From positions 15,695 through 79,694 of the forward strand of contig JAQUWT010000001.1 in the NCBI GenBank assembly GCA_028692765.1: a stretch of DNA of 64,000 nt, written 5' to 3'. Of the stretch, positions 12,284 through 31,268 are shown one piece after another. The notes below the pieces were generated by a model. It was not told where the DNA came from and did not search any database. It saw only the letters and a list, made by a program, of their open reading frames with translations. The position numbers were made by a program, and so were the translations under genes. The DNA comes from Patescibacteria group bacterium (lineage in GTDB: Bacteria; Patescibacteriota; Patescibacteriia; Patescibacteriales; UBA12465). Each line of letters opens with the position of its first letter. Position 1 is the first letter of the stretch.

Positions 12284-12354
12284 GCGGGATTGGTGTAGTG
12301 GTAACATGCGACTCTCCAAAAGTTGAGACGGGGGTTCGATTCCCTCATCCCGTG
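12284..12354 (+). tRNA. tRNA-Trp (anticodon CCA), CCA not encoded
   Basis: Acceptor GCGGGAT/ATCCCGT, anticodon stem CGACT/AGTTG with loop CTCCAAA, T-arm GGGGGTTCGATTCCCTC. Preceded by a promoter-like TTGTAA-16-TATAAT near 12150-12185. Confidence 0.8.
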
Positions 12355-12357
12355 CGT
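12343..12357 (+). repeat. attL-like copy of a 15-nt direct repeat (cctcatcccgtgcgt) covering the last 12 nt of tRNA-Trp plus 3 nt
   Basis: Identical 15-mer found again at 20389-20403. Confidence 0.7.
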
Positions 12358-12542: not shown

Positions 12543-13325
12543 ATGCCAAATTTTAATGATTTAAATTTAGAAAACTGGAAAGATTCTGATATCTGGACAG
12601 ATAGCCTTTGGATTATTCAGGAACGTGATAAATCGGGGAAACACGATGGTTTTTATCATGGAAATTTTGTGCCACAGATTCCTCGTCAACTTATAAAAAG
12701 ATATACCAAAGAGGGGGATGTCGTTTTTGATCCATTTTTAGGAAGTGGCACAACTGCTTATGAATGCGAAACTCTAAAAAGACATTTTATTGGGATTGAA
12801 ATACAGCCTAGTTTAGTAAGGCACGTTCAAACAAAGCTGGACAGTAAGAAAAATTTTTTTGAGATCTTGGCGGCTGATAGTACTGAGGAAAAAACATTTA
12901 TTAAGGTTAGTGAATCGCTAAAAAAGCATCGTCGCACTAAAGTCCAATTGGCAATACTGCACCCGCCATATGCCAACATAATTAAATTTAGCGATAATAA
13001 GAAAGATTTATCAAATGCCAAGGATTTAAGGCAGTTTCTTGACGAATTTTCAAGTGTAGTTAAAAATACTTTAACCATCCTAGAAAAGGGAAGGTATATG
13101 GCTATTGTTATGGGTGATAAATATGAACAGGGTAAGTGGATTCCTTTAGGATTTTATTGTATGAATGAAGCTTATAAGCTTGGATTAACTTTAAAGAGTG
13201 TTATAGTTAAGAATATGGAAGGCAACAGAGCAAAGCAGAATAAAGAGGGTATTTGGCGTTATAGAGCCCTGGCAAGTGATTATTATATTTTTAAACACGA
13301 ATATATATTAATTTTCAAATATTAG
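12543..13325 (+). CDS. DNA methyltransferase (N6-adenine/N4-cytosine amino-MTase), permuted motif order
   Basis: HGNFVPQIPRQLIKRYTKEGDVVFDPFLGSGTT matches the beta-class HPAxFP...DPFxGSGTT SAM-binding block, but here it is N-terminal. The PPY-type motif (LAILHPPYANI) lies downstream. AT-rich. Confidence 0.7.
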   Translation: MPNFNDLNLENWKDSDIWTDSLWIIQERDKSGKHDGFYHGNFVPQIPRQLIKRYTKEGDVVFDPFLGSGTTAYECETLKRHFIGIEIQPSLVRHVQTKLDSKKNFFEILAADSTEEKTFIKVSESLKKHRRTKVQLAILHPPYANIIKFSDNKKDLSNAKDLRQFLDEFSSVVKNTLTILEKGRYMAIVMGDKYEQGKWIPLGFYCMNEAYKLGLTLKSVIVKNMEGNRAKQNKEGIWRYRALASDYYIFKHEYILIFKY

Positions 13326-13326
13326 T

Positions 13327-14007
13327 ATGACAAATAATGAATTATTTCTAGAACTTGCGAAACCAAACAAAGACGGAGTAAGTCGTTGGGTTCCAGTTTC
13401 AGAATTTATTGGTAAATATAAAAAACTTCAGCTCGGAAATGGTGGAAGTTGGTGTCGAGCTAGCTCGAGTTTGGCGAAGAAATATATCGTTGAATTTGAT
13501 AAAAGCAAAACGGCCGGAAATTCAATCGATAGAGTTCGCTTAATTGGTTTTAATAAAAAAAAGATATTAAACCAAAATATTAGAAAGGATATAAAAGATT
13601 TTTATAAAGTGCAAAATTGTGTAATGCTTGGGGTTAATGGTAGCTCTGAGAATACAAAAATTGAAATTGATCATAAAGACGGTAGAAAAGAAGATCATAG
13701 ACTTTCAAATTTATCAGAACAACAAATCACTGATTTTCAGCCACTTTCAAAAGCGGCAAATGATATTAAAAGACAGATTTGTAAAAGATGTAAGGAAACC
13801 AATAAGCGTTGGAATGCTAAAAACATCAAGGGGAATCCATTTGATTTTTACGCAGGAGACGAAAATTATTCTGAAGAATTAGGATGCAAAGGTTGTTACC
13901 AGTATGATCCGGTGGAGTATAGGAAAGTTGTGGTTAGAAAGGTTGGCGAACTATCAGCCAGGGAAGCAGTTGATAAAGTTTTTAAAAAATTATATCCAGA
14001 AGGATAA
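13327..14007 (+). CDS. HNH-family endonuclease, putative cognate restriction enzyme
   Basis: EIDHKDGRKEDHRLSNL...ICKRCKETNKRWN matches the HNH pattern D-H...N...N-L...C-x2-C...N. One-nt gap after the MTase stop, so translationally coupled. Confidence 0.5.
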   Translation: MTNNELFLELAKPNKDGVSRWVPVSEFIGKYKKLQLGNGGSWCRASSSLAKKYIVEFDKSKTAGNSIDRVRLIGFNKKKILNQNIRKDIKDFYKVQNCVMLGVNGSSENTKIEIDHKDGRKEDHRLSNLSEQQITDFQPLSKAANDIKRQICKRCKETNKRWNAKNIKGNPFDFYAGDENYSEELGCKGCYQYDPVEYRKVVVRKVGELSAREAVDKVFKKLYPEG

Positions 14008-14016
14008 TGATAAAGT

Positions 14017-15699
14017 ATGAATAACTCTCCTCAAAAATCTGCAATAAATTCTCAAATTAACGATTTGATTAGTTTGAAATATTTAGGTTTAAATAAAGGA
14101 TTGCAAAGAGGTGCGGCATTTAACGAATTATCTGCCTCAATAATATGCGAGTCTGATATTCAGTCTGAAGACATTGTGGATGGTGATGATGACAATGGTC
14201 TCGATGTTGTTTTTATAAACTCTAATGACCAGGGAATTTTTATAAACATATTAAATTGTAAATCATCAGAAACTGAAAAATTTTCCGAGGTTGAGTTGGG
14301 TAAAATTAAAAATGGTTTATTTTATACATTTGAGGCTGATAAAAAAAAATATAAAAAACTAGAAAATCAAAACCTTTTAGCAAAAATAGAAGAAATAAGA
14401 GAAGACAAAGAAAATATCGTGGAGGTTAACTGTTTTTATTGTGCTTTTAGCGGTGATAATAATAAAGATAAAAAAATAAAAAGAGAAGTGGAGGAAATTC
14501 AAAATTATTTTAGCGAATATTTTAAAACAGTTTATCCAAATGCAAAATTTAATTTAAGTTTAATAAATGCAGAAGATTTATTCTACATAGATGCTCAGAG
14601 AAAACAGAGCCTTAGAAATGAAAAAATTTCTATACCGTATTATGGTGATAAAGTTATTTCAAATGAAGTAGAAACAGAAAAAATTGATGGAAGATTAGCA
14701 ACAGTAAGAGGAGAGGAAATTGCAAAGTTGGTTGAAAAATACGGAGAGTCTTTATTTGAAAAAAATGTTAGAGGTTGGATGAGCTTCAGAAAATATAATA
14801 AAGATATTTTATATTCCTGTTCCTCTGATAATGAATCGGAGCTTTTTTGGTTTTTAAATAATGGATTAACTATAGTATGTGATAAATGTGTTCCAGAGCC
14901 AGATAAGAAAATTTTAAAGTTAACAGCACCACAAATAATCAACGGACAACAAACCGCCAGAGTTTTAGAAAAAGCTTATAAGGATGGTATTTTAAAAGAA
15001 AATGTTAAAGTTTTATTAAAAATTTATGTAACTACTGCTCCTGATATAATAATTAAAGTTGCGAAAGCGACAAATAGCCAGCTTGTAGTCAAATCTCGCG
15101 ACTTAGTTTCTAATAATACTGAACAACTAGCTATTCAAAATGAATTTATAAGAAATAAATATGGTTATGAGAGACAGCGTGGTGAAAAAAAATCTAAGAC
15201 TGCTGACATAAAAGAAAATTTTAATAATTTTTTTGTAGCTCAATCAGTTCTATCTACTTTATTTGGGCAACCAAGCTTTGCAAAGAAAAAACAGGAGGAT
15301 AAGATTTTTGGAGAACCAAATTATTCCAAGATATTTAGAAATAATTCTGTGGATGAAATATTGACGGTTACTTTGTTGTGTAATTTCTGTTTAGGTGAAG
15401 GGCTTAAGCTGGAAAGAAAAAATATATCTGATCAAATAAAGTATTTTGCCTTTTTTCATATTGCCAGAATAATATGGTTTAATCTAAAAAATAAGGAAAA
15501 AATGAAAAATGATGAAATAATATCAATTATTCAAAATCATAAAAACAAGAAAAAATTAAATAATATATACACTAAAGCTTCTAATATATTATTAGGTGTA
15601 TATAAAAAATATAATAAGAAAGAAAAAATTATAAGTATTGGGCATTTGTTTTCTAGGTTGGAAGTTGATAAAGATATAAATAAATTATTATTTAAATGA
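14017..15699 (+). CDS. Large (560 aa) AIPR-like abortive-infection/defence protein
   Basis: Central IINGQQT motif, as I recall from AIPR proteins, which are often embedded in R-M operons; it is also distantly like the DGQQR motif of ParB/DUF262. K/N-rich, about 28% GC. Assignment is from memory only. Confidence 0.4.
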   Translation: MNNSPQKSAINSQINDLISLKYLGLNKGLQRGAAFNELSASIICESDIQSEDIVDGDDDNGLDVVFINSNDQGIFINILNCKSSETEKFSEVELGKIKNGLFYTFEADKKKYKKLENQNLLAKIEEIREDKENIVEVNCFYCAFSGDNNKDKKIKREVEEIQNYFSEYFKTVYPNAKFNLSLINAEDLFYIDAQRKQSLRNEKISIPYYGDKVISNEVETEKIDGRLATVRGEEIAKLVEKYGESLFEKNVRGWMSFRKYNKDILYSCSSDNESELFWFLNNGLTIVCDKCVPEPDKKILKLTAPQIINGQQTARVLEKAYKDGILKENVKVLLKIYVTTAPDIIIKVAKATNSQLVVKSRDLVSNNTEQLAIQNEFIRNKYGYERQRGEKKSKTADIKENFNNFFVAQSVLSTLFGQPSFAKKKQEDKIFGEPNYSKIFRNNSVDEILTVTLLCNFCLGEGLKLERKNISDQIKYFAFFHIARIIWFNLKNKEKMKNDEIISIIQNHKNKKKLNNIYTKASNILLGVYKKYNKKEKIISIGHLFSRLEVDKDINKLLFK

Positions 15700-16757
15700 A
15701 TTACATAGGAAGTAAATTATCATTATTGGAGTTTTTAGAGGAATCAATTAATAAAGTAGTTAAAAAAGACTGCAATGTTTTTTGTGATCTTTTTGCTGGA
15801 ACGGGGGCGGTCGGGTCATATTTTAAAAGAAAAGGATATAAAGTTATATCTAATGATATCCAATATTATAGCTATGTTTTAAATAGACACTATATTAAAA
15901 ATCATCAACCACTTGAATTTAAAAAATTATTTGATGTTGTTAATGGCTTAGAAAAATCATCCGTTTCTGATAGAAGTATTTTAGTCGTAGAGTATTTGAA
16001 TAATTTAAAAGGTCAAAAGGGATTTATTTTTAATAATTATTGTTTGGGTGGAACTAAAAATAAAGCAGAACAAAGAATGTATTTTTCTGATGAAAATGGG
16101 GCTAAATGTGATGCAATTAGAAAAAAAATAGAGGAATGGAATAGTGCTAGTTTAATTAATGGAAATGAATATTACTTTTTGTTAGCCAGTTTAGTTGAGT
16201 CAATAGATAAATATGCAAATACAGCTTCAGTTTATGGAGCATTTCTTAAGCAACTAAAGAAATCAGCTCAAAAATTAATGGTGCTTCAACCGGCGGAGTT
16301 AATTATTAATGAACAAGACCATGAGGTATACAATGAAGATATTAATTCTGTTATCGGAAAAATAAAGGGTGATATTCTTTACTTAGATCCGCCGTATAAT
16401 CAAAGGCAGTATGCAACCAACTATCATGTATTAGAGACTATAGCCAAATATGACAAGCCCAAAGTGCATGGCAAAACTGGGCTAAGAGATTATTCTAAAC
16501 AAAAATCCTTATATTGTTCAAGAAATCAAGTTAAAAAATCATTTAAAGATTTGATTGATAACGCGAAAGTTAAATATATATTTTTAAGCTATAATAACGA
16601 GGGGCTGATGAGCGCTGATGATATTAAAGAAATTATGGGCGCGCGCGGTAAGTATGGTGTTTTCACGAAAGAATATTCTAGATTTAAAGCTGACAAGAAT
16701 AGAGAATATAAGGCTGAAAAAACCGTTGAATATTTACATTATGTAGTATGCCGTTAA
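15696..16757 (+). CDS. Dam-like (MT-A70/D12 alpha-class) N6-adenine DNA methyltransferase
   Basis: MNYIGSKLSLL (Dam/MboI-type N-terminus), motif I DLFAGTGAV, motif IV LYLDPPY. ATGA overlap with the upstream gene. Confidence 0.85.
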   Translation: MNYIGSKLSLLEFLEESINKVVKKDCNVFCDLFAGTGAVGSYFKRKGYKVISNDIQYYSYVLNRHYIKNHQPLEFKKLFDVVNGLEKSSVSDRSILVVEYLNNLKGQKGFIFNNYCLGGTKNKAEQRMYFSDENGAKCDAIRKKIEEWNSASLINGNEYYFLLASLVESIDKYANTASVYGAFLKQLKKSAQKLMVLQPAELIINEQDHEVYNEDINSVIGKIKGDILYLDPPYNQRQYATNYHVLETIAKYDKPKVHGKTGLRDYSKQKSLYCSRNQVKKSFKDLIDNAKVKYIFLSYNNEGLMSADDIKEIMGARGKYGVFTKEYSRFKADKNREYKAEKTVEYLHYVVCR

Positions 16758-18469
16758 TAAATAAAATTTCAATAAAAAATTTTAAATGTTTTAGAAATAA
16801 AATTGATATTCCATTAAATCAAGGGAGTTATTTAATTGGTGCTAATAACGCAGGAAAAACAGCCGTACTTAATGCTATTAATTTCTTTTTTGATTCTTCT
16901 CTTTTTTTTGATGAGTCATTTTTAAACAGGACAAACTATTTGGCAAAAAAATCAGGATATAATAAGTCGGAAATTACTCTTAGTTTCGATTTAAGTTATA
17001 TATCTAATAGTTCACTTAAAAATAAGTTAGTAAAATTTTTTTCTTCCGAAATGGCAACAATTAAGAAGGTTATAATATTTTCTCCAGATTCTGGCAGTAT
17101 TAACTTGAGTTATGATATAAAGGGTAATAATTATACTTATGATGATTTAAATGAAAATGTTAAAAAAATGATTAGTAGTGTAAAGATTGTATATATACAC
17201 CCGCAAGAAGGTCGTGAATTGTTATTGAATGCTCAAAATAAACTACGTACGAGATTATTAGCAAATTGGGGGAGAAATGCTAAGCTTTCTCATAGTATCA
17301 AGGATCTGCAAGATAAATGGAGTGTTTTAAGAAAACAGGCCAGAGAATATCTTTCTGGATCTTTGTCAAATAGTCTACAAAATATGTGGCCAGGTGGATC
17401 TGCTTATATAGATTTACCAAAAGAAATTTCGGATATTGTGGCTATATCCGATATCACTTTTAAAGGTAATATTTCTTTGCCAGATATTAATTTAACAGCG
17501 CAAGGAACTGGCGCACAAACTACCATTTTATATTTAACTCATTATTTATTAGATAGCGATCGATCTTTACACAGAGGCGAATATCATCCAATTTGGCTAT
17601 TAGAGGAGCCGGAGTCATTTCTTCATGCTGATTTAATAGCAAAATTTGCATCTCAGCTAAATTCAGAATCTTGGATGAGCAATATACAGGTTGTGGTTTC
17701 TACGCATTCACCTATTTTACTTTCAGTAAGTAGAATGGGTAAGAATTTAGTTTCTTGGAGTTTGCTTGATAATTACGAACCACAGATATCAAAGAATGTT
17801 ATAGATTGGAGCCATGAAGAAATTTTTAATGTTGGCAAAAAAATGGGCGATCCAAATTTCTCAGTATATTTTTCCGTTTCACAAAATGGTCCTATTGTAT
17901 TTTTAGAAGACAAAAAAGATATTACAATAGATAGATTTAAAAAGGCCGGAATTTCCATTACTAGTGGGTTGGGCGGTGTTTCTGAGGTTGTTAGACATAT
18001 AAGTGTATTGATCTCAAGTCCTAGATTGTCGTCTAGCAAAATATACTATATAGTTGATGGCGATCGCGGCTTTAATAATTTTGTTAATTTTATTGATGGC
18101 GACCCCGTTAAGTCTATTGGGGGATTAAATAAGTTTCAATTAAAAGATTTAAATGATGTATATTTATTATCACTTCCAAAAAATAGAGCTATAGAAGAAA
18201 TGTTTGATGAGTATGAACCCTATTTGTTATCTTTAATTAATCAAATATGGGATCCGCATACCTGGAATTTTAGGCAAAAAATTCCTAGTGTTTTGTCAAC
18301 TATCTGCGCCTCTTCTAAGAAAAAAAATATAAATTCACTTGGCAGTGCTCAAAATGCTATAAAAAATTCTGATGATGTTAAATATATGTTTTGGAAAAAA
18401 GTTGAAAAAGAGAATTTAAGTTTTAGTAAAGTATTTATTTCTAATTTGGTAGCTATTCTAAATGATTAA
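16748..18469 (+). CDS. OLD/GajA-like nuclease: ABC-type ATPase fused to a C-terminal Toprim-like domain
   Basis: N-terminal ISIKNFKCF...GANNAGKT (Walker A), WLLEEPESFLHADL (Walker B/D-loop), STHSP (H-loop). C-terminal VFLEDKKD...YYIVDGDRGF fits the Toprim E...DxD pattern. Overlaps the MTase by 10 nt. Confidence 0.6.
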   Translation: MPLINKISIKNFKCFRNKIDIPLNQGSYLIGANNAGKTAVLNAINFFFDSSLFFDESFLNRTNYLAKKSGYNKSEITLSFDLSYISNSSLKNKLVKFFSSEMATIKKVIIFSPDSGSINLSYDIKGNNYTYDDLNENVKKMISSVKIVYIHPQEGRELLLNAQNKLRTRLLANWGRNAKLSHSIKDLQDKWSVLRKQAREYLSGSLSNSLQNMWPGGSAYIDLPKEISDIVAISDITFKGNISLPDINLTAQGTGAQTTILYLTHYLLDSDRSLHRGEYHPIWLLEEPESFLHADLIAKFASQLNSESWMSNIQVVVSTHSPILLSVSRMGKNLVSWSLLDNYEPQISKNVIDWSHEEIFNVGKKMGDPNFSVYFSVSQNGPIVFLEDKKDITIDRFKKAGISITSGLGGVSEVVRHISVLISSPRLSSSKIYYIVDGDRGFNNFVNFIDGDPVKSIGGLNKFQLKDLNDVYLLSLPKNRAIEEMFDEYEPYLLSLINQIWDPHTWNFRQKIPSVLSTICASSKKKNINSLGSAQNAIKNSDDVKYMFWKKVEKENLSFSKVFISNLVAILND

Positions 18470-24734: not shown

Positions 24735-24762
24735 AAGACGGGTCTTTATTCCCGTCTTTTTA
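24735..24762 (+). terminator. Rho-independent terminator
   Basis: aaagacggg-tctttatt-cccgtcttt followed by a T-run. Confidence 0.7.
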
Positions 24763-24782
24763 TTCAAACTATAATCAACTTC

Positions 24783-26066
24783 ATGAAAAATATATCTTGG
24801 CGTCTGGCTCCGGTGGCGGGCGCTCTGGCCATTATCGCCGCCGCTTTGCTTTGGAGCGTAGACGGCCTTTTCCTCCGTCCCCAGTTTTATGTCCTTCCCG
24901 CCGCTTTAGTGGTTTTTTGGGAACACTTTTTCGGTTTTTTAGCTCTGAGTCCTTTTTTATATGTCTATCGCCGGCAAATTAGAGCTTTAAGTCGCCAGAG
25001 CTGGCTGGCAATATTTTGGATTAGTCTTTTCGGCGGCCTGGTCGGCACTTTGTTTATCACCAAAGCTTTTTTTGCCGCTTTTGCCGGCAGTGTCAGCTTT
25101 GCCACGGTCGTTATTTTGCAGAAGTTGCAGCCGATTTTTGCCTTGCTGTTAGCGCGGCTGGTTCTGAAAGAAAAATTGCCGCGCCAATTTTATTTATGGG
25201 CGGGGCTAGCGATTGCCGCTAGTTATGTCTTAGCTTTTGCCGCTTCCGGTTTGGATATAAGGGCCATCGATTGGCGCCATAGCGCCGCCTTGTTTGCCTT
25301 TATTGCCGCTTTTGCTTTCGGCTCTTCCACAGTTTTTGGCAAGCGCATCGCCAATCATTTGAATTTTCGGGCGGTAGCAGCTTTACGCTTTGCGCTTACC
25401 AGTCTTCTATCTTTAATTTTATTGCTTGCTACCGGTGCTTTTAGGAGCGATTTAATCGCCGCGTATCAATGGTGGCTTCTTCTCCTTATCGTCTTTACCA
25501 GCGGCGCCGGCGCGATGTTTATATATTATTTCGGCCTGCGCCGGGTGAGTGCCTCCGCGGCCACGATTCTGGAGTTATTCTGGCCTTTTTCCGCTCTTAT
25601 TCTTGATTATGTTTTTAATCATAACTATTTGAATTTAGCGCAGAGCCTGGCTTTTTTTGCCCTCTTGTTTGCTTTTCTAAAGGTATCGGTTCTAAGCAGG
25701 CACAGTTTGCCCTCCTTTTCTGCGCGAGTTATTCGCGGCCAAGGACGGGGCAGGGGTTTGGGCTTTCCGACGGCTAATCTTGATAGGGCGGATTTGGATA
25801 TGCCTCACGGCATCTATGCTGTCAGTGTCGGTCTGGGAGATAGGAGATATGGCGGATTGATGCATTTCGGCTTTAAAGACGTGTTTAAAGAAGATGTATC
25901 GATGGAAGTGTTTATTAAAGATTTTTCTGGAGATATCTATGGCGAAGTTTTGCAGGTTAAAGTGTTGCAGAAAATCAGGGAAGTGCGCCGTTTTGAGAAT
26001 CAAGACGAGTTGATTGCCGCTATCAATGGCGACTTGCAGGTTTTGGAGGCTTTAGGGGAGAAATAG
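24783..26066 (+). CDS. Fusion protein: N-terminal EamA/DMT-family 10-TM transporter plus C-terminal riboflavin kinase (RibF C-domain-like)
   Basis: Residues ~1-300 are a polytopic membrane domain with duplicated EamA-like halves. Residues ~310-427 (RVIRGQGRGRGLGFPTANL...HGIYAV...YGEVLQVKVLQKIREVRRFENQDELIAAINGD) match the riboflavin kinase fold (GxGRG..GFPTAN, ..E..F). Continuous ORF. Confidence 0.7.
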   Translation: MKNISWRLAPVAGALAIIAAALLWSVDGLFLRPQFYVLPAALVVFWEHFFGFLALSPFLYVYRRQIRALSRQSWLAIFWISLFGGLVGTLFITKAFFAAFAGSVSFATVVILQKLQPIFALLLARLVLKEKLPRQFYLWAGLAIAASYVLAFAASGLDIRAIDWRHSAALFAFIAAFAFGSSTVFGKRIANHLNFRAVAALRFALTSLLSLILLLATGAFRSDLIAAYQWWLLLLIVFTSGAGAMFIYYFGLRRVSASAATILELFWPFSALILDYVFNHNYLNLAQSLAFFALLFAFLKVSVLSRHSLPSFSARVIRGQGRGRGLGFPTANLDRADLDMPHGIYAVSVGLGDRRYGGLMHFGFKDVFKEDVSMEVFIKDFSGDIYGEVLQVKVLQKIREVRRFENQDELIAAINGDLQVLEALGEK

Positions 26067-26338
26067 GCCTTATCTTGACATTTTTTACATTTTAGATTAG
26101 CTTAGATATATAAGATATTATGTACATTATATTGGGTGTGGCAAGCTAAGCTTAGAACCTTATATTTCTAGCCGCTTGCGCGCGCCTCTCTTCCTAGACG
26201 GCCCTTAGTTTCATTGGTTTGTAAATGCATGGTTTGGTTAAGTTTGCCTTTTTCGGGCTGTCTTGCCTCGGCTGCCTTTAACTTATGTTATTGGCAGCTT
26301 TCTTTTTAAGCGGCTTTAAAGCTTGCTTTTTTTAATGG

Positions 26339-26369
26339 ATTAACTATAATTAATTTACTTATAGTTAAT
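26339..26369 (+). promoter_or_regulatory. 11-bp perfect inverted repeat (attaactataa-N9-ttatagttaat); candidate Rrf2-regulator operator
   Basis: Perfect palindrome arms separated by 9 nt, ending 15 nt upstream of the Rrf2 regulator start codon. Confidence 0.55.
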
Positions 26370-26383
26370 AGATATATATTATC

Positions 26384-26779
26384 ATGTTTCAAATTAACGC
26401 TAAAACCGATTATGGCTTATTGATTATGTTGCAATTAGCCAAATTACCCGGAGAAATCATGCCCCTATCGCCCTTAGCCAAACATCTGAGGGTGTCTTCG
26501 CCATATTTAAGCCAGATTGCCAATTCTTTACAGAAAGCCGGTTTAATCAAGAGCCGGGAAGGGGCCGGCGGCGGCTATTATCTCGCCCGGCCGGCGCAGC
26601 AGATAAAAGTTTCGGAAATTCTGGAGGCCTTGTCCGGGGAAATGAAGGTGCGCTGCACCCACAGCCGGAATAAGACTTGCCCGCATTTTCAGCAATGCGG
26701 CCTCAAGAGCGCCTGGCCTTTGCTTTTAAATGATATTAAGTCCAGTTTAGCCAAGAGAAGTTTGGCTTCGCTGTTATAA
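26384..26779 (+). CDS. Rrf2 family transcriptional regulator (IscR/SufR-like, Fe-S cluster-binding)
   Basis: N-terminal wHTH, GAGGGYYLARPAQQIKVSEILEA block, and C-terminal cysteines C-x7-C-x5-C (VRCTHSRNKTCPHFQQCG). First gene of the suf operon. Confidence 0.85.
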   Translation: MFQINAKTDYGLLIMLQLAKLPGEIMPLSPLAKHLRVSSPYLSQIANSLQKAGLIKSREGAGGGYYLARPAQQIKVSEILEALSGEMKVRCTHSRNKTCPHFQQCGLKSAWPLLLNDIKSSLAKRSLASLL

Positions 26780-26785
26780 AATAAT

Positions 26786-27529
26786 ATGGATTTGTTATTA
26801 GTAAAAAATTTAAGCGTTTCCGCCGGCGATAAGGAAATTTTGCATGAGCTCAGTTTCTCCGTAGCTTTGGGCGAGAGCGTTGTTATTATGGGGCCGAACG
26901 GCTCCGGTAAAAGTACTCTGGCCAAGGTCTTGATGGGCCATCCCGATTATCAAATTACCGGCGGTCAGATTATTTTTCGGGATAAGGATATAACTGCGGC
27001 TAAGCCGGAAGAAAGAGCGGCGGCGGGTTTATTTTTAGCTTTTCAGGAGCCGCGGGAGATCGCCGGTTTAGAATTGTTTCCGTTTTTATTCGATGCCTAC
27101 AAGGCTTTGCAGGCTGCCCGCGGCCAAGATGCCGGCAGTGTTTTTGCTTTTAAGGCGAAATTGGATGATGAGTTAGCGGCCTTGGATATTAAGAGCGATT
27201 GGTCTAACCGCCATTTGAATCAGGATTTTTCCGGGGGTGAAAAGAAAAAAGCCGAACTTTTGCAATTGGCGCTGGCCAATCCGGTCTTGGCAATTTTTGA
27301 TGAAATCGATTCCGGTCTAGATGTTGATGCTTTAGAGGTGGCGGGCAAAGCCATTCAACGTTTTAAGAATGGTGATAATAGTCTCTTGGCGGTCACCCAT
27401 TATCAGCGCGTTCTTAAGTATATCAAGCCGGATAGAGTTTTGGTGATGTCTAAGGGTCGGATTGCGCAGAGCGGCGGGCCGGAACTGGCCGCTCGTTTAG
27501 AAAAAGAAGGATTTGCGAGCGTTATTTAA
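26786..27529 (+). CDS. sufC: Fe-S cluster assembly ATPase SufC
   Basis: ABC ATPase with Walker A GPNGSGKST, the SufC-specific HPDYQITGG, signature LSGGEKKK, Walker B and H-loop (VTHY). Confidence 0.9.
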   Translation: MDLLLVKNLSVSAGDKEILHELSFSVALGESVVIMGPNGSGKSTLAKVLMGHPDYQITGGQIIFRDKDITAAKPEERAAAGLFLAFQEPREIAGLELFPFLFDAYKALQAARGQDAGSVFAFKAKLDDELAALDIKSDWSNRHLNQDFSGGEKKKAELLQLALANPVLAIFDEIDSGLDVDALEVAGKAIQRFKNGDNSLLAVTHYQRVLKYIKPDRVLVMSKGRIAQSGGPELAARLEKEGFASVI

Positions 27530-27534
27530 TTATT

Positions 27535-28929
27535 ATGGCTGAAGACTTAAAGTCACATGATTCCCTCTGGGATGACTATAATCAAGCCGATTACATGGCT
27601 CAAACCAAAAGCGGCCTGGACGAGGCTTTGGTGCGCCGTATTTCTGCGGAGAAAGAAGAGCCGGCTTGGATGCTGGCGAAGCGCTTGGAGTCCTTAAAGA
27701 TTTTTCAAGAAAAAGCTTTGCCGGCTTGGGGTCCGGATTTATCCCGCTTGAATCTGGATAAGATTACCTATTACGCCAAAGCGATGGAAGGGCAGGCGCA
27801 GAGCTGGGAGGATGTGCCGGCTGACATCAAAAATACTTTTGATAAGCTGGGAATTCCCAAGGCGGAGCAGGAAGTTTTAGCGGGTGTGGGCGCGCAGTAT
27901 GAATCAACCGTCGTCTATCATAATCTTAAAGCCGAGTTTAAACGCCAGGGCGTTATTTTTGAAGACATGGATTTGGCTTTAAAGAAGCACCCGGAATTGG
28001 TCGAGCCTTATTTTATGAGGGCGATGCCCAATACTCTGCATAAATTCGCCGCTTTGCACGGAGCGGTTTGGAGCGGCGGCACTTTTTTATATATTCCCGC
28101 CGGAGTGAAAATAAAAGAGCCTTTGCAAGCCTATTTCCGGATGAACGCCAAAGGAATGGGTCAATTTGAACATACCTTGATTATCGTTGAAAGCGGCGCT
28201 CAAGCGCATTATATTGAAGGTTGCAGCGCTCCCCGCTACGGCGTCGATTCTTTGCATGCCGGCGGAGTGGAAATTTATGTCAAAGAGGGTGCCCGTTTCC
28301 GCTACAGCAGCGTGGAGAGCTGGAGTAAGGATGCCTATAATTTAAATACGAAGCGGGCAATCGTGGAGAAAAAAGCGCACATGGAATGGGTGGGCGGTAA
28401 TTTCGGTAGTAACGTGACGATGCTCTATCCTTGTTCTATTCTTGTCGGCGAGGGGGCGAGCGCCGACCATCTCGGCGTCGCTTTTGCCAACGAGGGCCAA
28501 ACTCAAGATACCGGCGCCAAAGTCATCCACGCCGCTAAAGATACCAGTTCTAACATCGTGATGAAAAGTATCAGCAAGGGCGGTGGCAAGGCGATTTATC
28601 GCGGCTTGGTGGAAGTCGGTCCGCAGGCCGAAGGCGCCGCCGTCTCCGTAAAATGCGATGCCTTGATTTTAGACGAATTGTCGGTTTCCGACACGATTCC
28701 GGTAATGAAAATCAATAATCCAAGTGCCACTATCGCTCATGAAGCCAGCGCCGGCAAAATCAACGAAGAAGATTTATTCTATCTGCGCAGTCGCGGTTTG
28801 AAAGAAGCGGAAGCGGCCGCTATGCTGGTTAACGGTTTTATCGAGCCGATTACCAAGGAATTGCCTTTGGAGTATTCGGTGGAAATGAACCGGATGGTGG
28901 AATTGGAAATGGAAAATAGCGTCGGTTAA
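27535..28929 (+). CDS. sufB: Fe-S cluster assembly protein SufB
   Basis: 464 aa. Conserved C-terminal beta-helix region ..IAHEASAGKINEEDLFYLRSRGL.. Confidence 0.9.
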   Translation: MAEDLKSHDSLWDDYNQADYMAQTKSGLDEALVRRISAEKEEPAWMLAKRLESLKIFQEKALPAWGPDLSRLNLDKITYYAKAMEGQAQSWEDVPADIKNTFDKLGIPKAEQEVLAGVGAQYESTVVYHNLKAEFKRQGVIFEDMDLALKKHPELVEPYFMRAMPNTLHKFAALHGAVWSGGTFLYIPAGVKIKEPLQAYFRMNAKGMGQFEHTLIIVESGAQAHYIEGCSAPRYGVDSLHAGGVEIYVKEGARFRYSSVESWSKDAYNLNTKRAIVEKKAHMEWVGGNFGSNVTMLYPCSILVGEGASADHLGVAFANEGQTQDTGAKVIHAAKDTSSNIVMKSISKGGGKAIYRGLVEVGPQAEGAAVSVKCDALILDELSVSDTIPVMKINNPSATIAHEASAGKINEEDLFYLRSRGLKEAEAAAMLVNGFIEPITKELPLEYSVEMNRMVELEMENSVG

Positions 28930-28934
28930 TATCT

Positions 28935-29681
28935 ATGAATAATTTTTTAGAATTAAAAGCGGAAGAGGAAATCAAGCTGGCCGGCGGCCGGCCGTCTTTG
29001 TTGATAGAGCGCTGGTCTCAGAGTCCGGCTTTAGCTAAGCGTAAATTTTTTCTTGAAGCCGGCGCTGAAGCCAGCTATCTATTGATTGTCGATAAGCCTG
29101 TCGAGATTGACGCGCTTGAACGCCGGTGGCTTGTCGGCCCCGGCGCCAAAGTTAATTTATATTATCTTTTTTTGGAGCCGCTTAAAACGGAAATTAAATT
29201 TATCCATGATATCGGCGCCGGCGCTATTGTTAATAGTAATTCTTTATTTTTGGGCAATGATAATGATGATTGGCATATCCAAGCTTATTATAATTTCCAA
29301 GATAAGGACAGCTTCGGCCGGGTTAAGGTAGAGGCGTCTTTGCGCGAACAGGCGCATCTGGATTATGCCGCCAATATGAATGTGTCGCCGGCGGCGCAGA
29401 AAAGCGATACCAGAGTCGATATGCGTTTATATCTGGAGGGGAAGGCGCGCGGTCAAGTTATTCCCGGCCTTAATATCGCCGCCAATGACGTTAAAGCCGG
29501 GCACAGCGCCAGCACTTTCAAATTGGCTCCGGAAGACTTGTTTTATCTGCAGAGCCGCGGCTTGTCTCCGGCTGATATCAAAAAAATGTTAAGCTTGTCT
29601 TTGGCGAAAAATTTTATCCAGGGTTTTCCCGATGAAGCTTTAAGCAAAGAAGTCTTAGATTTAATTTCGGTTAATTTATGA
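28935..29681 (+). CDS. sufD: Fe-S cluster assembly protein SufD (short form)
   Basis: C-terminal block AGHSASTFKLAPEDLFYLQSRGL is paralogous to SufB. Positioned between sufB and sufS. Confidence 0.75.
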   Translation: MNNFLELKAEEEIKLAGGRPSLLIERWSQSPALAKRKFFLEAGAEASYLLIVDKPVEIDALERRWLVGPGAKVNLYYLFLEPLKTEIKFIHDIGAGAIVNSNSLFLGNDNDDWHIQAYYNFQDKDSFGRVKVEASLREQAHLDYAANMNVSPAAQKSDTRVDMRLYLEGKARGQVIPGLNIAANDVKAGHSASTFKLAPEDLFYLQSRGLSPADIKKMLSLSLAKNFIQGFPDEALSKEVLDLISVNL

Positions 29682-30889
29682 AAGATTATCGCTTAGATTT
29701 TCCTTTGTTGAAAAGGAAATATAATAATCAGCCCCTGGTGTATTTTGACAATGCCGCTACCGCGCCCAAGCCGCAGGCGGTGATTGCCGCCGTTAACGAT
29801 TATTACCATTTGCATAACGCCAATGTCCATCGCGGCCCTAATTTTTTATCCGAGGAAGCGACTTTATTGTATGAAGGCGCCAGGAAGAAGGTGGCCGATT
29901 TTATCGGGGCGGATAAAGAGGAAATTATCTTTACTGCCGGTACGACCGCCGGCCTTAATCTTTTGGCCAGGGCTTGGGGCGAGAATAATTTAAAAGCCGG
30001 CGATATTGTCGCTTTAAGCCGGGCCGAACATCACGCCAATATTGTTCCTTGGCTGCAGCTGAAGGAAAAGCTCGGTATTGTTTTAGAATATATCGATGTG
30101 AAGTCCGACGGCGCTTTTGACGAGCTTAGTTTGGACAAAATTTTTGACCAGCCTCGTCTGCGCGTTTTAAGCATCACTCAAGCTTCCAATGTTCTCGGCC
30201 AGTTTTATGATTTAAAATCAATCTTGGCGCGGGCGCAAGCGCGCGGAGTTTTAACGATTGTGGACGCGGCCCAAAGCATTGCCCATCGCCCGCTCGATGT
30301 CAGGTCTTTTGATTGCGATTTTCTAGTTTTTTCCGGCCATAAGCTTTTTGCGCCTGCGGGCCTCGGCGTTCTTTATGGACGCCGGGATTTATTGGACAAG
30401 CTGCCGCCGTTTTTGGGCGGCGGCGGCATGATTTCCGAGGTGAAGGAGCAGTCTTTTTCTCCTTTGGCAGACAGCCTGAAGCTGGAGGCGGGTACGCCCA
30501 ATATTGAAGGCGCTATCGCTTTGGGGGCGGCTTGCGATTATTTGCGGGAAATATCCTGGCCGGCAATAATCGAGCGAGAAGAAGTTTTAGTGGATTATTT
30601 TTTTAAGAAATTAGAGACTTGCGATTTTGTCCGTCTCTTGGGAGGAAGGTCCGGCCGTTTACCTCTTTTCGCTTTAGATCTTCAGGGTTTTCATCCTCAT
30701 GATGCCGCTGATTTGCTCGGCGAACAGGGAATTGTTACCCGCGCTGGCCATCATTGCGCCCAGCCTTTGCATGACGCTTTGGAAGTGAGCTCCAGCTTGC
30801 GCGCCAGCTTGTCTTTTTATAACACGACTGCGGAAATAGATATTTTTTTCCGGACCCTGCAGTCGATTAAAAAATCTTTTTCTTTCTAA
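29678..30889 (+). CDS. sufS: Cysteine desulfurase SufS (class V aminotransferase)
   Basis: PLP-lysine motif SGHKL and active-site RAGHHCAQP. 4-nt overlap with sufD. Confidence 0.9.
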   Translation: MKDYRLDFPLLKRKYNNQPLVYFDNAATAPKPQAVIAAVNDYYHLHNANVHRGPNFLSEEATLLYEGARKKVADFIGADKEEIIFTAGTTAGLNLLARAWGENNLKAGDIVALSRAEHHANIVPWLQLKEKLGIVLEYIDVKSDGAFDELSLDKIFDQPRLRVLSITQASNVLGQFYDLKSILARAQARGVLTIVDAAQSIAHRPLDVRSFDCDFLVFSGHKLFAPAGLGVLYGRRDLLDKLPPFLGGGGMISEVKEQSFSPLADSLKLEAGTPNIEGAIALGAACDYLREISWPAIIEREEVLVDYFFKKLETCDFVRLLGGRSGRLPLFALDLQGFHPHDAADLLGEQGIVTRAGHHCAQPLHDALEVSSSLRASLSFYNTTAEIDIFFRTLQSIKKSFSF

Positions 30890-30890
30890 T

Positions 30891-31268
30891 ATGGATATTT
30901 ACGCTAAGAACATTCTTGATCACTATCAGTGTCCGCGGCATCGGGGAGAGATGCCTTCAGCCGACGCTTGTTCGCGCGAGCTTAATCGCAGTTGCGGCGA
31001 CGAGATAACCGTTTATGTAAAAATAAAAGACGGCGTTGTAAGCGCCATCTCTTTTACGGGTAAGGGCTGCGCTATTTCCACGGCTGCCATTTCTATTTTA
31101 AGCGAAGAGCTTGTCGGCCGGAATAAGGATGAAATCTTAAAGATGGATATTGAAGATATCCGCAAGATATTGGGCATTGAAATCAGCTGGCGGCGGGAAA
31201 AGTGCGCCATTATCGGTTTGTGCGCTCTGCAGGGAGCTTTGCGCGCTTCTGAGAAAAACGCATCTTGA
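30891..31268 (+). CDS. sufU: SufU/IscU-like Fe-S scaffold/sulfur acceptor
   Basis: NifU-N-like domain with conserved cysteines in CGDEI, GKGCAIS and the C-terminal region. Confidence 0.85.
   Translation: MDIYAKNILDHYQCPRHRGEMPSADACSRELNRSCGDEITVYVKIKDGVVSAISFTGKGCAISTAAISILSEELVGRNKDEILKMDIEDIRKILGIEISWRREKCAIIGLCALQGALRASEKNAS

What the first reader, a model, noticed from the sequence alone, without database searches (positions are those of the whole stretch)
24783..26066. EamA/DMT transporter fused to a riboflavin kinase domain: a candidate import-and-trap module for riboflavin
It is a single continuous 427-aa ORF. The first ~300 residues are a 10-TM EamA-type permease. The last ~115 residues carry the riboflavin-kinase signature GxGRG..GFPTANL...YGE...E..RFEN. 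DMT/EamA family members (ImpX, RibN) are known riboflavin importers, and an organism without riboflavin biosynthesis must scavenge it. Fusing the kinase to the permease would phosphorylate riboflavin to FMN at the membrane, trapping it. No separate ribF or riboflavin-synthesis gene is seen in this window.
Basis: partly seen in the sequence, partly recalled or inferred. Interest (0 to 1): 0.6.

Follow-up and report, generated by a model that had tools for sequence, protein, structure and literature searches.

The report
Riboflavin importer fused to riboflavin kinase
A tiny-genome bacterium encodes one protein that joins an ImpX-type vitamin B2 (riboflavin) importer to the kinase that converts riboflavin to FMN, and the same pairing has arisen independently in other ultra-small bacteria and archaea, which argues that uptake and phosphorylation are coupled on purpose.

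Summary
Window 24783-26066 (+) is one intact 427-aa ORF with a 10-TM EamA/DMT permease (residues 1-304), a 6-residue linker and a complete riboflavin kinase domain (PF01687, residues 311-422). The kinase keeps the catalytic T330, N332 and E375.

It is not a frameshift artefact. All 120 best homologs carry both domains, and 22 of 80 GTDB species loci hold an intact fusion.

- The permease half belongs to the ImpX family. It is 38% identical to the Fusobacterium nucleatum-group ImpX ortholog, which sits behind an FMN riboswitch. ImpX is an experimentally validated riboflavin importer.
- The same permease subfamily is linked to riboflavin kinases in four independent ways: fused to the ATP-type kinase (CPR bacteria); fused to the archaeal CTP-type kinase PF01982 (no significant sequence similarity to PF01687); in an operon behind an RbkR-like kinase/regulator gene (DPANN archaea); and next to a standalone kinase (Buchananbacteria).

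Most likely function: riboflavin uptake followed immediately by phosphorylation to FMN at the inner membrane face, which traps the vitamin. Transport, energetics and any channelling are inferred, not shown. I found no published description. I rate it a new variant of a known kind, of moderate to good interest.

The parts
24783..26066 (+). Whole gene: ImpX-like permease fused to riboflavin kinase (427 aa plus stop)
   Evidence: Single ORF; both Pfam domains; identical to NCBI protein P0001.
24783..25694 (+). Permease domain, residues 1-304: 10-TM EamA/DMT fold, ImpX subfamily
   Evidence: EamA x2. 10 hydrophobic segments, with about 15 K+R on the predicted cytoplasmic side against 5 outside, giving N-in/C-in topology. 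Foldseek matches YddG 5i20 and LicB 7paf. 38% identity, E 7e-60, to the F. nucleatum-group ImpX ortholog P0494. All 25 subfamily-conserved positions are shared.
25695..25712 (+). Short linker, residues 305-310, between TM10 and the first kinase beta-strand
   Evidence: DSSP on the AF2 model: helix 285-304, strand 311-317. The ELxWP-to-PTAN spacing is fixed at 64-65 residues in most family members.
25713..26048 (+). Riboflavin kinase domain (PF01687), residues 311-422, predicted cytoplasmic
   Evidence: Pfam 101.6 bits. PDB sequence hits 1mrz at 1.7e-18 and human RFK at 2.7e-12. Fold matches 1q9s, 5a89 and 1mrz at rmsd 2.0-2.7 A.
25767..25778 (+). PTAN motif (P329 T330 A331 N332), the nucleotide/Mg2+ site
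   Evidence: Aligns with CaFADS 207-PTAN-210 and the human RFK PTAN (PMC5428420). T is invariant and N is kept in at least 90% of the family.
25905..25907 (+). E375 codon, the predicted catalytic base
   Evidence: Aligns with the E of 'SVESF' in the CaFADS RFK module, which is E268, the catalytic base (PMC5428420). Invariant in 120 and in 65 family members.
24770..24775 (+). TATAAT hexamer 7 nt upstream of the ATG (possible -10 box; leaderless or near-leaderless mRNA)
   Evidence: Read directly from the sequence. Not among the paired-hexamer sites. Inference only.
24735..24765 (+). 8-bp hairpin plus T-run after the upstream gene. It leaves only about 17 nt before the ATG, so there is no room for an FMN riboswitch.
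   Evidence: Read directly from the sequence. No RF00050 match anywhere in the window.

Best explanation
The gene encodes a bifunctional riboflavin salvage protein. An ImpX-family DMT permease brings external riboflavin across the membrane. A catalytically intact ATP-dependent riboflavin kinase is tethered by a roughly 6-residue linker to the cytoplasmic end of TM10 and phosphorylates the riboflavin to FMN. FMN is charged and is presumably not a permease substrate, so it stays in the cell and the inward riboflavin gradient is maintained (metabolic trapping). Shown here: the architecture, its conservation, the cytoplasmic placement of the kinase, retention of the catalytic residues, ImpX-family membership of the permease, and repeated independent genetic coupling of this permease subfamily to riboflavin kinases. 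Inferred: the substrate, the direction of transport, that the permease works as a facilitator, and that fusion (rather than mere co-expression) improves capture. FAD synthesis would need a separate FMN adenylyltransferase, which is not found in this window.
For: 1. The fusion is real and under selection. All 120 best homologs have PF00892+PF01687. All 15 further divergent representatives (32-59% identity) of 409-455 aa scanned and carrying PF01687 have the same architecture. 22 intact fusions occur among 80 GTDB species loci spanning MAGs labelled Falkowbacteria, Magasanikbacteria, Parcubacteria/Paceibacterota and Saccharibacteria.
2. The kinase looks active. T330/N332 align with CaFADS T208/N210 and E375 aligns with E268, the catalytic base. 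T and E are invariant across the family.
3. Topology. 10 TM segments with a 15 vs 5 positive-inside bias place the C-terminus in the cytoplasm. The AF2 model has pLDDT 85.9 and pTM 0.84 for the whole two-domain chain.
4. The permease is ImpX family. A Fusobacteriia relative and the F. nucleatum-group ortholog both lie directly behind FMN riboswitches (108.8 and 115.1 bits). The published ImpX forward cloning primer matches upstream of that locus. The window's permease half is 38% identical, E 7e-60, to that ortholog. The ImpX-like cluster's nearest representatives rank 10th and 13th of 1.84 billion in an exhaustive search from the window's permease half. ImpX rescued an E. coli riboflavin auxotroph (PMC4418817).
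5. Independent coupling to kinases. Four divergent proteins fuse the same permease subfamily to PF01982, the CTP-dependent archaeal kinase, which shows no significant sequence similarity to PF01687 (hhalign probability 20%). Their permease halves are nearest to unfused archaeal ones. An RbkR-like gene (HTH+PF01982) lies immediately upstream of the unfused permease in Aenigmatarchaeota-, Woesearchaeota- and Nanobdellota-labelled contigs, in at least two synteny contexts. A standalone 126-aa PF01687 kinase ORF overlaps the permease start in a Buchananbacteria MAG.
6. Precedent. Pnu vitamin facilitators are co-localised with kinases and work by facilitated diffusion plus trapping (PMC5749112).
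Against: There is no experimental data for any fused protein. The transport mode of ImpX (facilitator or proton-coupled) is unknown, so 'trapping' may not be needed for accumulation. About 50 unfused bacterial family members have no kinase within 3.5 kb, and 19 of the 20 unfused bacterial loci tested have no FMN riboswitch, so substrate specificity across the whole subfamily is not proven. The neighbours of the fused gene are not conserved and include no flavin genes. Whole-genome absence of ribF and rib genes was not tested. The first position of PTAN is variable in the family, and two members have N replaced by S, so some copies may have altered activity.
Confidence: 0.78

Rival explanations
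1. The kinase domain acts mainly as a flavin sensor or regulator of the permease rather than as the cell's riboflavin kinase. Binding of FMN, ADP or excess riboflavin would close or slow the transporter. This would give feedback control in organisms that lack FMN riboswitches and RbkR.
For: RFK modules are strongly inhibited by riboflavin, FMN and ADP (PMC5544777). Archaeal RbkR already uses a kinase domain as both enzyme and ligand sensor (PMC5397151). The window has no FMN riboswitch, and the 85-nt upstream gap leaves no room for one. The short fixed linker and pTM of 0.84 suggest a rigid domain arrangement.
Against: Invariance of the catalytic T and E across the family is what an active enzyme predicts. 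A pure sensor would be free to lose them. The two roles do not exclude each other, so this is more an addition than a replacement.
Confidence: 0.12
2. The permease carries something other than riboflavin (another flavin or deazaflavin, a nucleoside-like metabolite, or it is an exporter), and the kinase is simply the cell's housekeeping RFK that happened to fuse to a neighbouring gene.
For: EamA/DMT proteins have very diverse substrates and many are exporters; YddG is the top fold hit. Most unfused bacterial family members show no flavin-related context. One family member is fused to a HAD hydrolase instead (P0196).
Against: A chance fusion does not explain the same permease subfamily being joined to two kinase families that lack detectable sequence similarity and placed in operons with kinases in several lineages. 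FMN-riboswitch control in Fusobacteriia and the experimental ImpX complementation point to riboflavin. All 25 subfamily-conserved positions checked are identical between the ImpX ortholog and the window's protein, and nearly all are shared by the other fused proteins examined.
Confidence: 0.07
3. The single ORF is an assembly or sequencing artefact that joins two separate genes.
For: One related locus (L029) is frameshifted, and one (L043) has the kinase and permease as separate ORFs.
Against: The ORF is continuous here and identical on an independently assembled Logan contig. The fusion is found in hundreds of proteins from NCBI, JGI, ENA and Logan assemblies with a fixed domain spacing.
Confidence: 0.01

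Closest known systems
ImpX riboflavin transporter (DMT/EamA family; Fusobacterium nucleatum, Desulfitobacterium hafniense)
   Same: Same 10-TM EamA fold and same subfamily. 38% identity over 279 residues to the F. nucleatum-group ortholog. All 25 subfamily-conserved positions are shared. ImpX complements an E. coli riboflavin auxotroph (PMC4418817).
   Different: Known ImpX proteins are about 300 aa, stand alone, are usually monocistronic behind an FMN riboswitch, and were reported only in riboflavin prototrophs of Proteobacteria, Firmicutes and Fusobacteria. Here the permease carries a C-terminal kinase, has no riboswitch, and sits in a Patescibacteria genome.
RFK module of bifunctional FAD synthetase RibF, and monofunctional eukaryotic RFK (PF01687)
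   Same: Full-length domain with a matching fold. PTAN motif and catalytic Glu are conserved.
   Different: There is no N-terminal FMN adenylyltransferase module. NCBIfam RibF models match only residues about 312-420, at 63-75 bits against cut-offs of 184-461. The N-terminal partner is a membrane transporter instead. The first PTAN position is variable in the family.
Pnu-type vitamin facilitators with co-localised kinases (PnuC/NadR, PnuT/thiamine kinase, PnuX=RibM for riboflavin): facilitated diffusion plus metabolic trapping
   Same: Same proposed logic: uptake of the unphosphorylated vitamin followed by cytoplasmic phosphorylation that traps it. Transporter and kinase are genetically linked (PMC5749112).
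   Different: The transporter fold is unrelated (Pnu versus DMT). In Pnu systems the coupling is by operon, not by covalent fusion. Facilitated diffusion has been shown for PnuT but not for any ImpX.
RbkR (archaeal bifunctional CTP-dependent riboflavin kinase/transcription regulator) regulons
   Same: The kinase is genetically tied to riboflavin uptake genes. In DPANN contigs an RbkR-like gene directly precedes the same permease subfamily.
   Different: The published RbkR regulons contain RibU (ECF) and RibT (MFS) transporters, not an EamA permease, and DPANN genomes were not analysed (PMC5397151). The window's protein has no DNA-binding domain and uses the ATP-type kinase.

Membership tests
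ImpX riboflavin transporter family | 10-TM DMT/EamA fold | tested here: met
   Pfam EamA x2; 10 TM segments; Foldseek matches to YddG, LicB and TPT.
ImpX riboflavin transporter family | Specific sequence relationship to the experimentally validated F. nucleatum ImpX | tested here: met
   38% identity, E 7e-60, to P0494 (F. nucleatum subsp. polymorphum). P0494 lies behind an FMN riboswitch, with the published ImpX forward primer site upstream at 17 of 20 bases. Its nearest representatives rank 10 and 13 of 1.84 billion. 25 of 25 conserved positions are shared. Caveat: the ATCC 23726 protein itself was not available, and the reverse primer did not match within 3 mismatches.
ImpX riboflavin transporter family | FMN riboswitch upstream (the way ImpX was originally recognised) | tested here: not met
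   No RF00050 match in the window, and the upstream gap is only 85 nt. The feature is present in the Fusobacteriia relatives. It is a regulatory feature of some lineages, not of the protein.
ImpX riboflavin transporter family | Riboflavin uptake activity | not testable with these tools
   Needs complementation of a ribB-deletion strain or an uptake assay.
Riboflavin kinase, ATP-dependent (PF01687, EC 2.7.1.26) | Domain match above the curated threshold, full length | tested here: met
   101.6 bits against a cut-off of 19.6, covering profile positions 6-121 of 124.
Riboflavin kinase, ATP-dependent (PF01687, EC 2.7.1.26) | PTAN motif Thr/Asn and the catalytic-base Glu | tested here: met
   T330, N332 and E375 align with CaFADS T208, N210 and E268 and with the human RFK PTAN and 'SMETH' Glu. 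They are conserved in the family.
Riboflavin kinase, ATP-dependent (PF01687, EC 2.7.1.26) | Six-stranded beta-barrel plus terminal helix fold | tested here: met
   AF2 secondary structure. Foldseek matches 1q9s, 5a89 and 1nb0 with TM 0.69-0.71 (normalised to target) and rmsd 2.0-3.3 A.
Riboflavin kinase, ATP-dependent (PF01687, EC 2.7.1.26) | Kinase activity and nucleotide preference | not testable with these tools
   Needs an enzyme assay.
Bifunctional FAD synthetase RibF | N-terminal FMN adenylyltransferase module (PF06574) | tested here: not met
   No PF06574 hit. RibF equivalog models match only the C-terminal kinase part, far below their cut-offs. No FMNAT motif is present in the window.
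RibN riboflavin transporter family | Sequence relationship to Rhizobium, Ochrobactrum or Vibrio RibN | not tested
   No RibN reference sequence could be obtained with the tools. No library model named RibN matched.
Pnu vitamin facilitator family | Pnu transporter fold or sequence family | tested here: not met
   Only EamA and Flavokinase are found, and the fold matches are DMT proteins. The resemblance is functional only.

The most novel reading that the evidence does not exclude
The fusion is more than co-expression. The kinase active site may be docked at the inward-facing exit of the permease, so that riboflavin is handed directly to the kinase and leaves only as FMN. That would be vectorial phosphorylation resembling group translocation. 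Product (FMN/ADP) occupancy of the kinase might also gate the transporter, replacing riboswitch or RbkR control. This solution would have evolved twice: with the ATP-type kinase in CPR bacteria and with the CTP-type kinase, presumably in DPANN archaea (the source organism of those fusions was not established). It would make ImpX-kinase modules the main flavin entry route of these ultra-small symbionts.
Probability: 0.25. Interest if true: 0.8.

Novelty: new variant of a known kind. Interest (0 to 1): 0.6.

Why it matters
Patescibacteria (CPR) and DPANN archaea are thought to depend on other cells for vitamins, yet few of their uptake routes have been identified. This analysis gives a concrete candidate route for riboflavin.

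It also extends the ImpX family. ImpX was previously reported only in riboflavin-proficient Proteobacteria, Firmicutes and Fusobacteria, and the authors called its absence from import-dependent bacteria 'intriguing' (PMC4418817). Here relatives appear in hundreds of CPR and DPANN genomes.

The same permease has been joined independently to two riboflavin kinase families that share no detectable sequence similarity, and placed in kinase operons. That is unusually clean comparative evidence for selection on coupling uptake to phosphorylation.

The protein is small and self-contained (427 aa). It allows a direct test of whether a DMT vitamin carrier works by facilitated diffusion plus trapping, and whether a covalent fusion gives channelling or feedback gating. 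A single gene conferring riboflavin capture and FMN formation could also be useful in engineering.

Tried and rejected
- FMN riboswitch in the window: none at Rfam gathering thresholds. Across 20 unfused bacterial family loci only one, the Fusobacteriia MAG, had it. Riboswitch control is therefore not a general feature of the subfamily.
- Conserved neighbours of the fused gene: none, and no flavin genes, in L001-L003. No context support from that direction.
- Literature: full-text searches for EamA/DMT plus riboflavin kinase fusion, Patescibacteria or CPR plus riboflavin kinase or FAD synthetase, and DPANN plus riboflavin transporter found no description of the fusion. The RbkR paper lists only RibU and RibT as RbkR-linked transporters. 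These searches cover open-access papers and bioRxiv only.
- F. nucleatum ImpX identity by primers: the forward primer matched with 3 mismatches and the reverse primer did not match. The held contig is from a different subspecies, so the identification rests on the riboswitch, the forward primer and the organism names.
- Second RFK, RibF or FMNAT in the window: none by local HMMs and motif search. Uninformative for the whole genome.
- RibL-like FAD synthetase as a conserved partner: found next to the module in only 2 of about 93 loci. Rejected as a general feature and kept as a lead.
- Frameshift or artefact explanation: rejected.
- Apparent broken ORFs in L021, L041 and L064: explained by UGA recoding, not pseudogenes.
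- PMC2168442 (Vogl 2007, RibM/PnuX) could not be read. PMC5749112 was used instead for the trapping precedent.
Full report
**Observation.** Window 24783-26066 (+) is one uninterrupted 427-aa ORF starting at ATG. Pfam assigns two EamA repeats (92.7 bits, cut-off 28.2) and a full-length Flavokinase domain PF01687 at residues 311-422 (101.6 bits, cut-off 19.6). NCBIfam RibF models match only the C-terminal 110 residues, at 63-75 bits against cut-offs of 184-461, so there is no FMN adenylyltransferase module. The C-terminal domain matches the kinase modules of T. maritima RibF (1mrz, 1.7e-18), S. pneumoniae FADS (3op1) and human RFK (1nb0/1q9s, about 2e-12). Hydropathy gives 10 TM segments. About 15 Lys+Arg lie on the loops predicted to be cytoplasmic and 5 on the others, so both termini and the kinase face the cytoplasm. 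An AlphaFold2 model built on 65 family sequences is confident (mean pLDDT 85.9, pTM 0.84). It has ten long helices, a linker at residues 305-310, then a beta-barrel and a terminal helix. Foldseek matches the N-terminal half to DMT transporters (YddG 5i20, the choline importer LicB 7paf, TPT, SLC35) and the C-terminal half to RFK structures (rmsd 2.0-3.3 A). No solved chain covers both halves.

**Not an artefact.** An identical protein is deposited at NCBI as 'MAG: riboflavin kinase [Patescibacteria group bacterium]', and the same gene is on an independently assembled Logan contig. All 120 best homologs (59-100% identity, 379-451 aa, from NCBI, JGI, ENA and Logan) carry PF00892+PF01687. So do 15 more divergent 50%-cluster representatives. 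In a scan of one genome per GTDB species with a permease-only query, 80 loci were kept out of at least 588 relatives. Of these, 21 held an intact fusion under code 11, one more (L021) is intact when UGA is read as a sense codon, one (L029) is frameshifted and one is cut by a contig end. The fused MAGs are labelled Falkowbacteria, Magasanikbacteria, Parcubacteria/Paceibacterota, Saccharibacteria and 'Patescibacteria group'. The spacing between the TM9 motif ELxWP and the kinase PTAN motif is 64-65 residues in most members, so the linker is short and fixed.

**Kinase competence.** In the profile alignment to the C. ammoniagenes RFK module, the family's GfPTAN aligns with CaFADS 207-PTAN-210. The invariant Glu aligns with the E of 'SVESF', which counts out to E268. 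PMC5428420 names 207-PTAN-210 and the catalytic base E268. In the window these are T330, N332 and E375. T and E are invariant in 120 and in 65 family sequences, and N is kept in at least 90%. The first PTAN position is variable in the family (R/H/Q/L/K/S), and two members have N replaced by S.

**What the permease is.** An exhaustive phmmer search of the permease half (residues 1-306) against 1.84 billion representatives returned only 971 hits at E<=1e-3 and 82 at E<=1e-30. This is a compact EamA subfamily in which fused (about 410-455 aa) and unfused (about 300-320 aa) members are interleaved. Of 20 unfused bacterial loci tested with Rfam, one, from a Fusobacteriia MAG (L089), has a complete FMN riboswitch (RF00050, 108.8 bits) ending 77 nt before the ATG start of the permease ORF. 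That permease is 58-59% identical to DMT proteins of F. periodonticum/pseudoperiodonticum, F. nucleatum subsp. polymorphum and F. massiliense, and 57% identical to that of F. varium/ulcerans. The polymorphum protein (P0494) lies behind an FMN riboswitch (115.1 bits). The published ImpX forward cloning primer matches 250 nt upstream of that riboswitch with 3 mismatches, and 0 of 200 shuffles reach this. The reverse primer did not match.

ImpX was predicted from FMN-riboswitch control. It was shown to rescue an E. coli ribB-deletion riboflavin auxotroph (PMC4418817). The window's permease half is 38% identical to P0494 over 279 residues (E 7e-60). The Fusobacterium proteins are 53-60% identical to representatives P0130 and P0133, which rank 10th and 13th in the exhaustive search. 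All 25 subfamily-conserved positions examined (including W24, D27, T89, Q113, K114, Q116, E130, T183, K187, R202, E264 and Q287) are identical in P0494. I therefore file the permease half as an ImpX-family member. The FMN riboswitch itself is absent here: there is none in the window, and the upstream gap is only 85 nt, most of it a terminator-like hairpin.

**Independent genetic coupling to riboflavin kinases.**
- One representative (P0138, 428 aa) joins the same permease subfamily to PF01982, the archaeal CTP-dependent riboflavin kinase (101.7 bits). A search with it found three more such fusions, 47-49% identical to it, on separate contigs.
- All four keep the archaeal GTLN phosphate-binding motif, which replaces PTAN in what is described as a 'completely distinct' enzyme type (bioRxiv 10.1101/2021.04.15.440061).
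- The ATP-type and CTP-type kinase domain alignments show no significant similarity (hhalign probability 20%, no phmmer hit). For three of the four, the best-matching permease half among the sequences held is an unfused one (53-61% identity); all four are only 40-44% identical to ATP-type fusions. The two fusions are therefore independent events. From memory, structural classifications place both kinases in one 'riboflavin kinase-like' superfamily, so I do not claim they are unrelated in fold.
- In contigs labelled Aenigmatarchaeota (L007), Woesearchaeota (L011) and Nanobdellota (L065), and in two further contigs with L007-type synteny (L009/L010, L012), the unfused permease starts 4-17 nt after, or overlaps, a 208-238-aa gene encoding HTH(MarR)+PF01982. 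That is the RbkR architecture. The RbkR paper reports RibU and RibT as RbkR-linked transporters and did not analyse DPANN (PMC5397151).
- In a Buchananbacteria MAG (L043), a standalone 126-aa PF01687 kinase ORF overlaps the start of the permease ORF.

Together with the riboswitch, these are five independent lines tying this permease subfamily to riboflavin and its phosphorylation.

**Mechanism.** The best-supported reading is uptake of riboflavin by the ImpX-like domain, followed by immediate ATP-dependent phosphorylation to FMN by the tethered cytoplasmic kinase. This retains the vitamin and keeps the gradient inward. The logic is documented for Pnu vitamin facilitators, whose genes are often co-localised with kinases and for which facilitated diffusion plus trapping was shown for PnuT (PMC5749112). 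The shown steps are the architecture, its conservation, the topology, the catalytic residues and the family membership. The inferred steps are the substrate, the direction, the energetics and any advantage of covalent fusion.

A compatible addition is feedback. RFK modules are strongly inhibited by riboflavin, FMN and ADP (PMC5544777), so the fused domain could also throttle uptake in a genome without riboswitch or RbkR control.

FAD formation needs a separate adenylyltransferase, and none is in the window. In two loci (L020 Parcubacteria, L065 Nanobdellota) a small PF01467 cytidylyltransferase-like ORF with GTFDxLHxGH lies directly upstream of the module. As I recall, RibL belongs to PF01467. 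The ORF's best solved relative is a 143-aa Thermoplasma protein, 3glv. No curated FAD-synthase model passes its cut-off, and the adjacency is rare.

**Limits.**
- About 50 unfused bacterial members (Ignavibacteria, Calditrichota, Bacteroidales, Marinisomatota, Cloacimonadota and others) have neither a kinase within 3.5 kb nor, where tested, a riboswitch.
- The neighbours of the fused gene vary and are not flavin-related.
- Only 64 kb of this genome was available, so auxotrophy is not demonstrated.
- RibN was not compared.

**Novelty and verdict.** Both domains and the trapping principle are known. The covalent ImpX-kinase fusion, its wide distribution in CPR, the convergent CTP-kinase fusion and the rbkR-impX operons in DPANN were not found in the searchable literature. 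Database names are only 'EamA family transporter' or 'riboflavin kinase'. The ImpX paper reported the family only in riboflavin prototrophs and found its absence from import-dependent bacteria intriguing; these data bear directly on that point. I rate it a new variant of a known kind, with interest 0.6 and confidence 0.78 in the import-and-phosphorylate function.

Noticed in passing
L021 1619-2965 (MAG labelled Candidatus Roizmanbacteria): The fused permease-kinase ORF is intact (449 aa) only if UGA is read as a sense codon. One in-frame TGA aligns with the family-invariant Gly51, which suggests code 25 (UGA=Gly) in a MAG not labelled Gracilibacteria. L041 and L064 (Gracilibacteria) also need recoding and are unfused.
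   Followed up: partly
L020 2345-2770 and L065 2196-2825: Small PF01467 cytidylyltransferase-like ORFs (motif GTFDxLHxGH, shared C-terminal 'KPEKYKSS', 108 bits to each other across domains of life) lie directly upstream of the fused gene (Parcubacteria) and of the rbkR-like/permease pair (Nanobdellota). They are candidate RibL-type FAD synthetases that would complete a salvage operon. Seen in only 2 of about 93 loci, and no curated FAD-synthase model passes its cut-off.
   Followed up: partly
P0196 (574 aa, Logan contig; no locus fetched): A member of the same permease subfamily is fused to a HAD-family hydrolase (PF12710/PF00702) instead of a kinase. It could be a phosphatase acting on a phosphorylated substrate. 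Its function is unexplained.
   Followed up: no
L043 3076-4388 (Candidatus Buchananbacteria MAG): A split version in the reverse order: a standalone 126-aa PF01687 riboflavin kinase ORF overlaps the start of an unfused permease ORF.
   Followed up: partly
L029 2789-4095; L036 3435-4766: L029 has the fused gene interrupted by a frameshift (pseudogene or assembly error). L036 has an insertion of about 28 residues inside the kinase domain.
   Followed up: no
window 24735-24782: An 8-bp GC-rich hairpin plus T-run (24735-24765) follows the upstream zinc-ribbon gene. A perfect TATAAT (24770-24775) lies only 7 nt before the ATG, with no Shine-Dalgarno sequence, which suggests a leaderless or near-leaderless transcript. 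Seen by eye; not reported by the consensus scan.
   Followed up: no
window 26067-26383: A 317-nt intergenic region between the fused gene and the Rrf2-family regulator that heads the SufC-SufB-SufD-SufS-SufU cluster (26384-31268). It has promoter-like sites on both strands and no Rfam match.
   Followed up: no
window 12543-18469: A block of genes that by eye look like DNA methyltransferases, a restriction-type endonuclease and an AAA-ATPase (restriction-modification or defence island). It lies just after tRNA-Trp (12284-12355).
   Followed up: no
L040, L017, L018; P0050: ATP-type fusions 60-66% identical to the window's protein occur in MAGs labelled 'archaeon', 'uncultured Gammaproteobacteria' and 'Proteiniphilum sp.'. 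Binning or labelling errors seem more likely than real occurrences outside Patescibacteria.
   Followed up: no
fusion family, kinase motif (window 25767-25769): The first residue of the PTAN motif is frequently R, H, Q, L, K or S in the fused family. Thr is invariant and Asn is nearly so. Two members (P0103, P0135) have TAS instead of TAN.
   Followed up: partly
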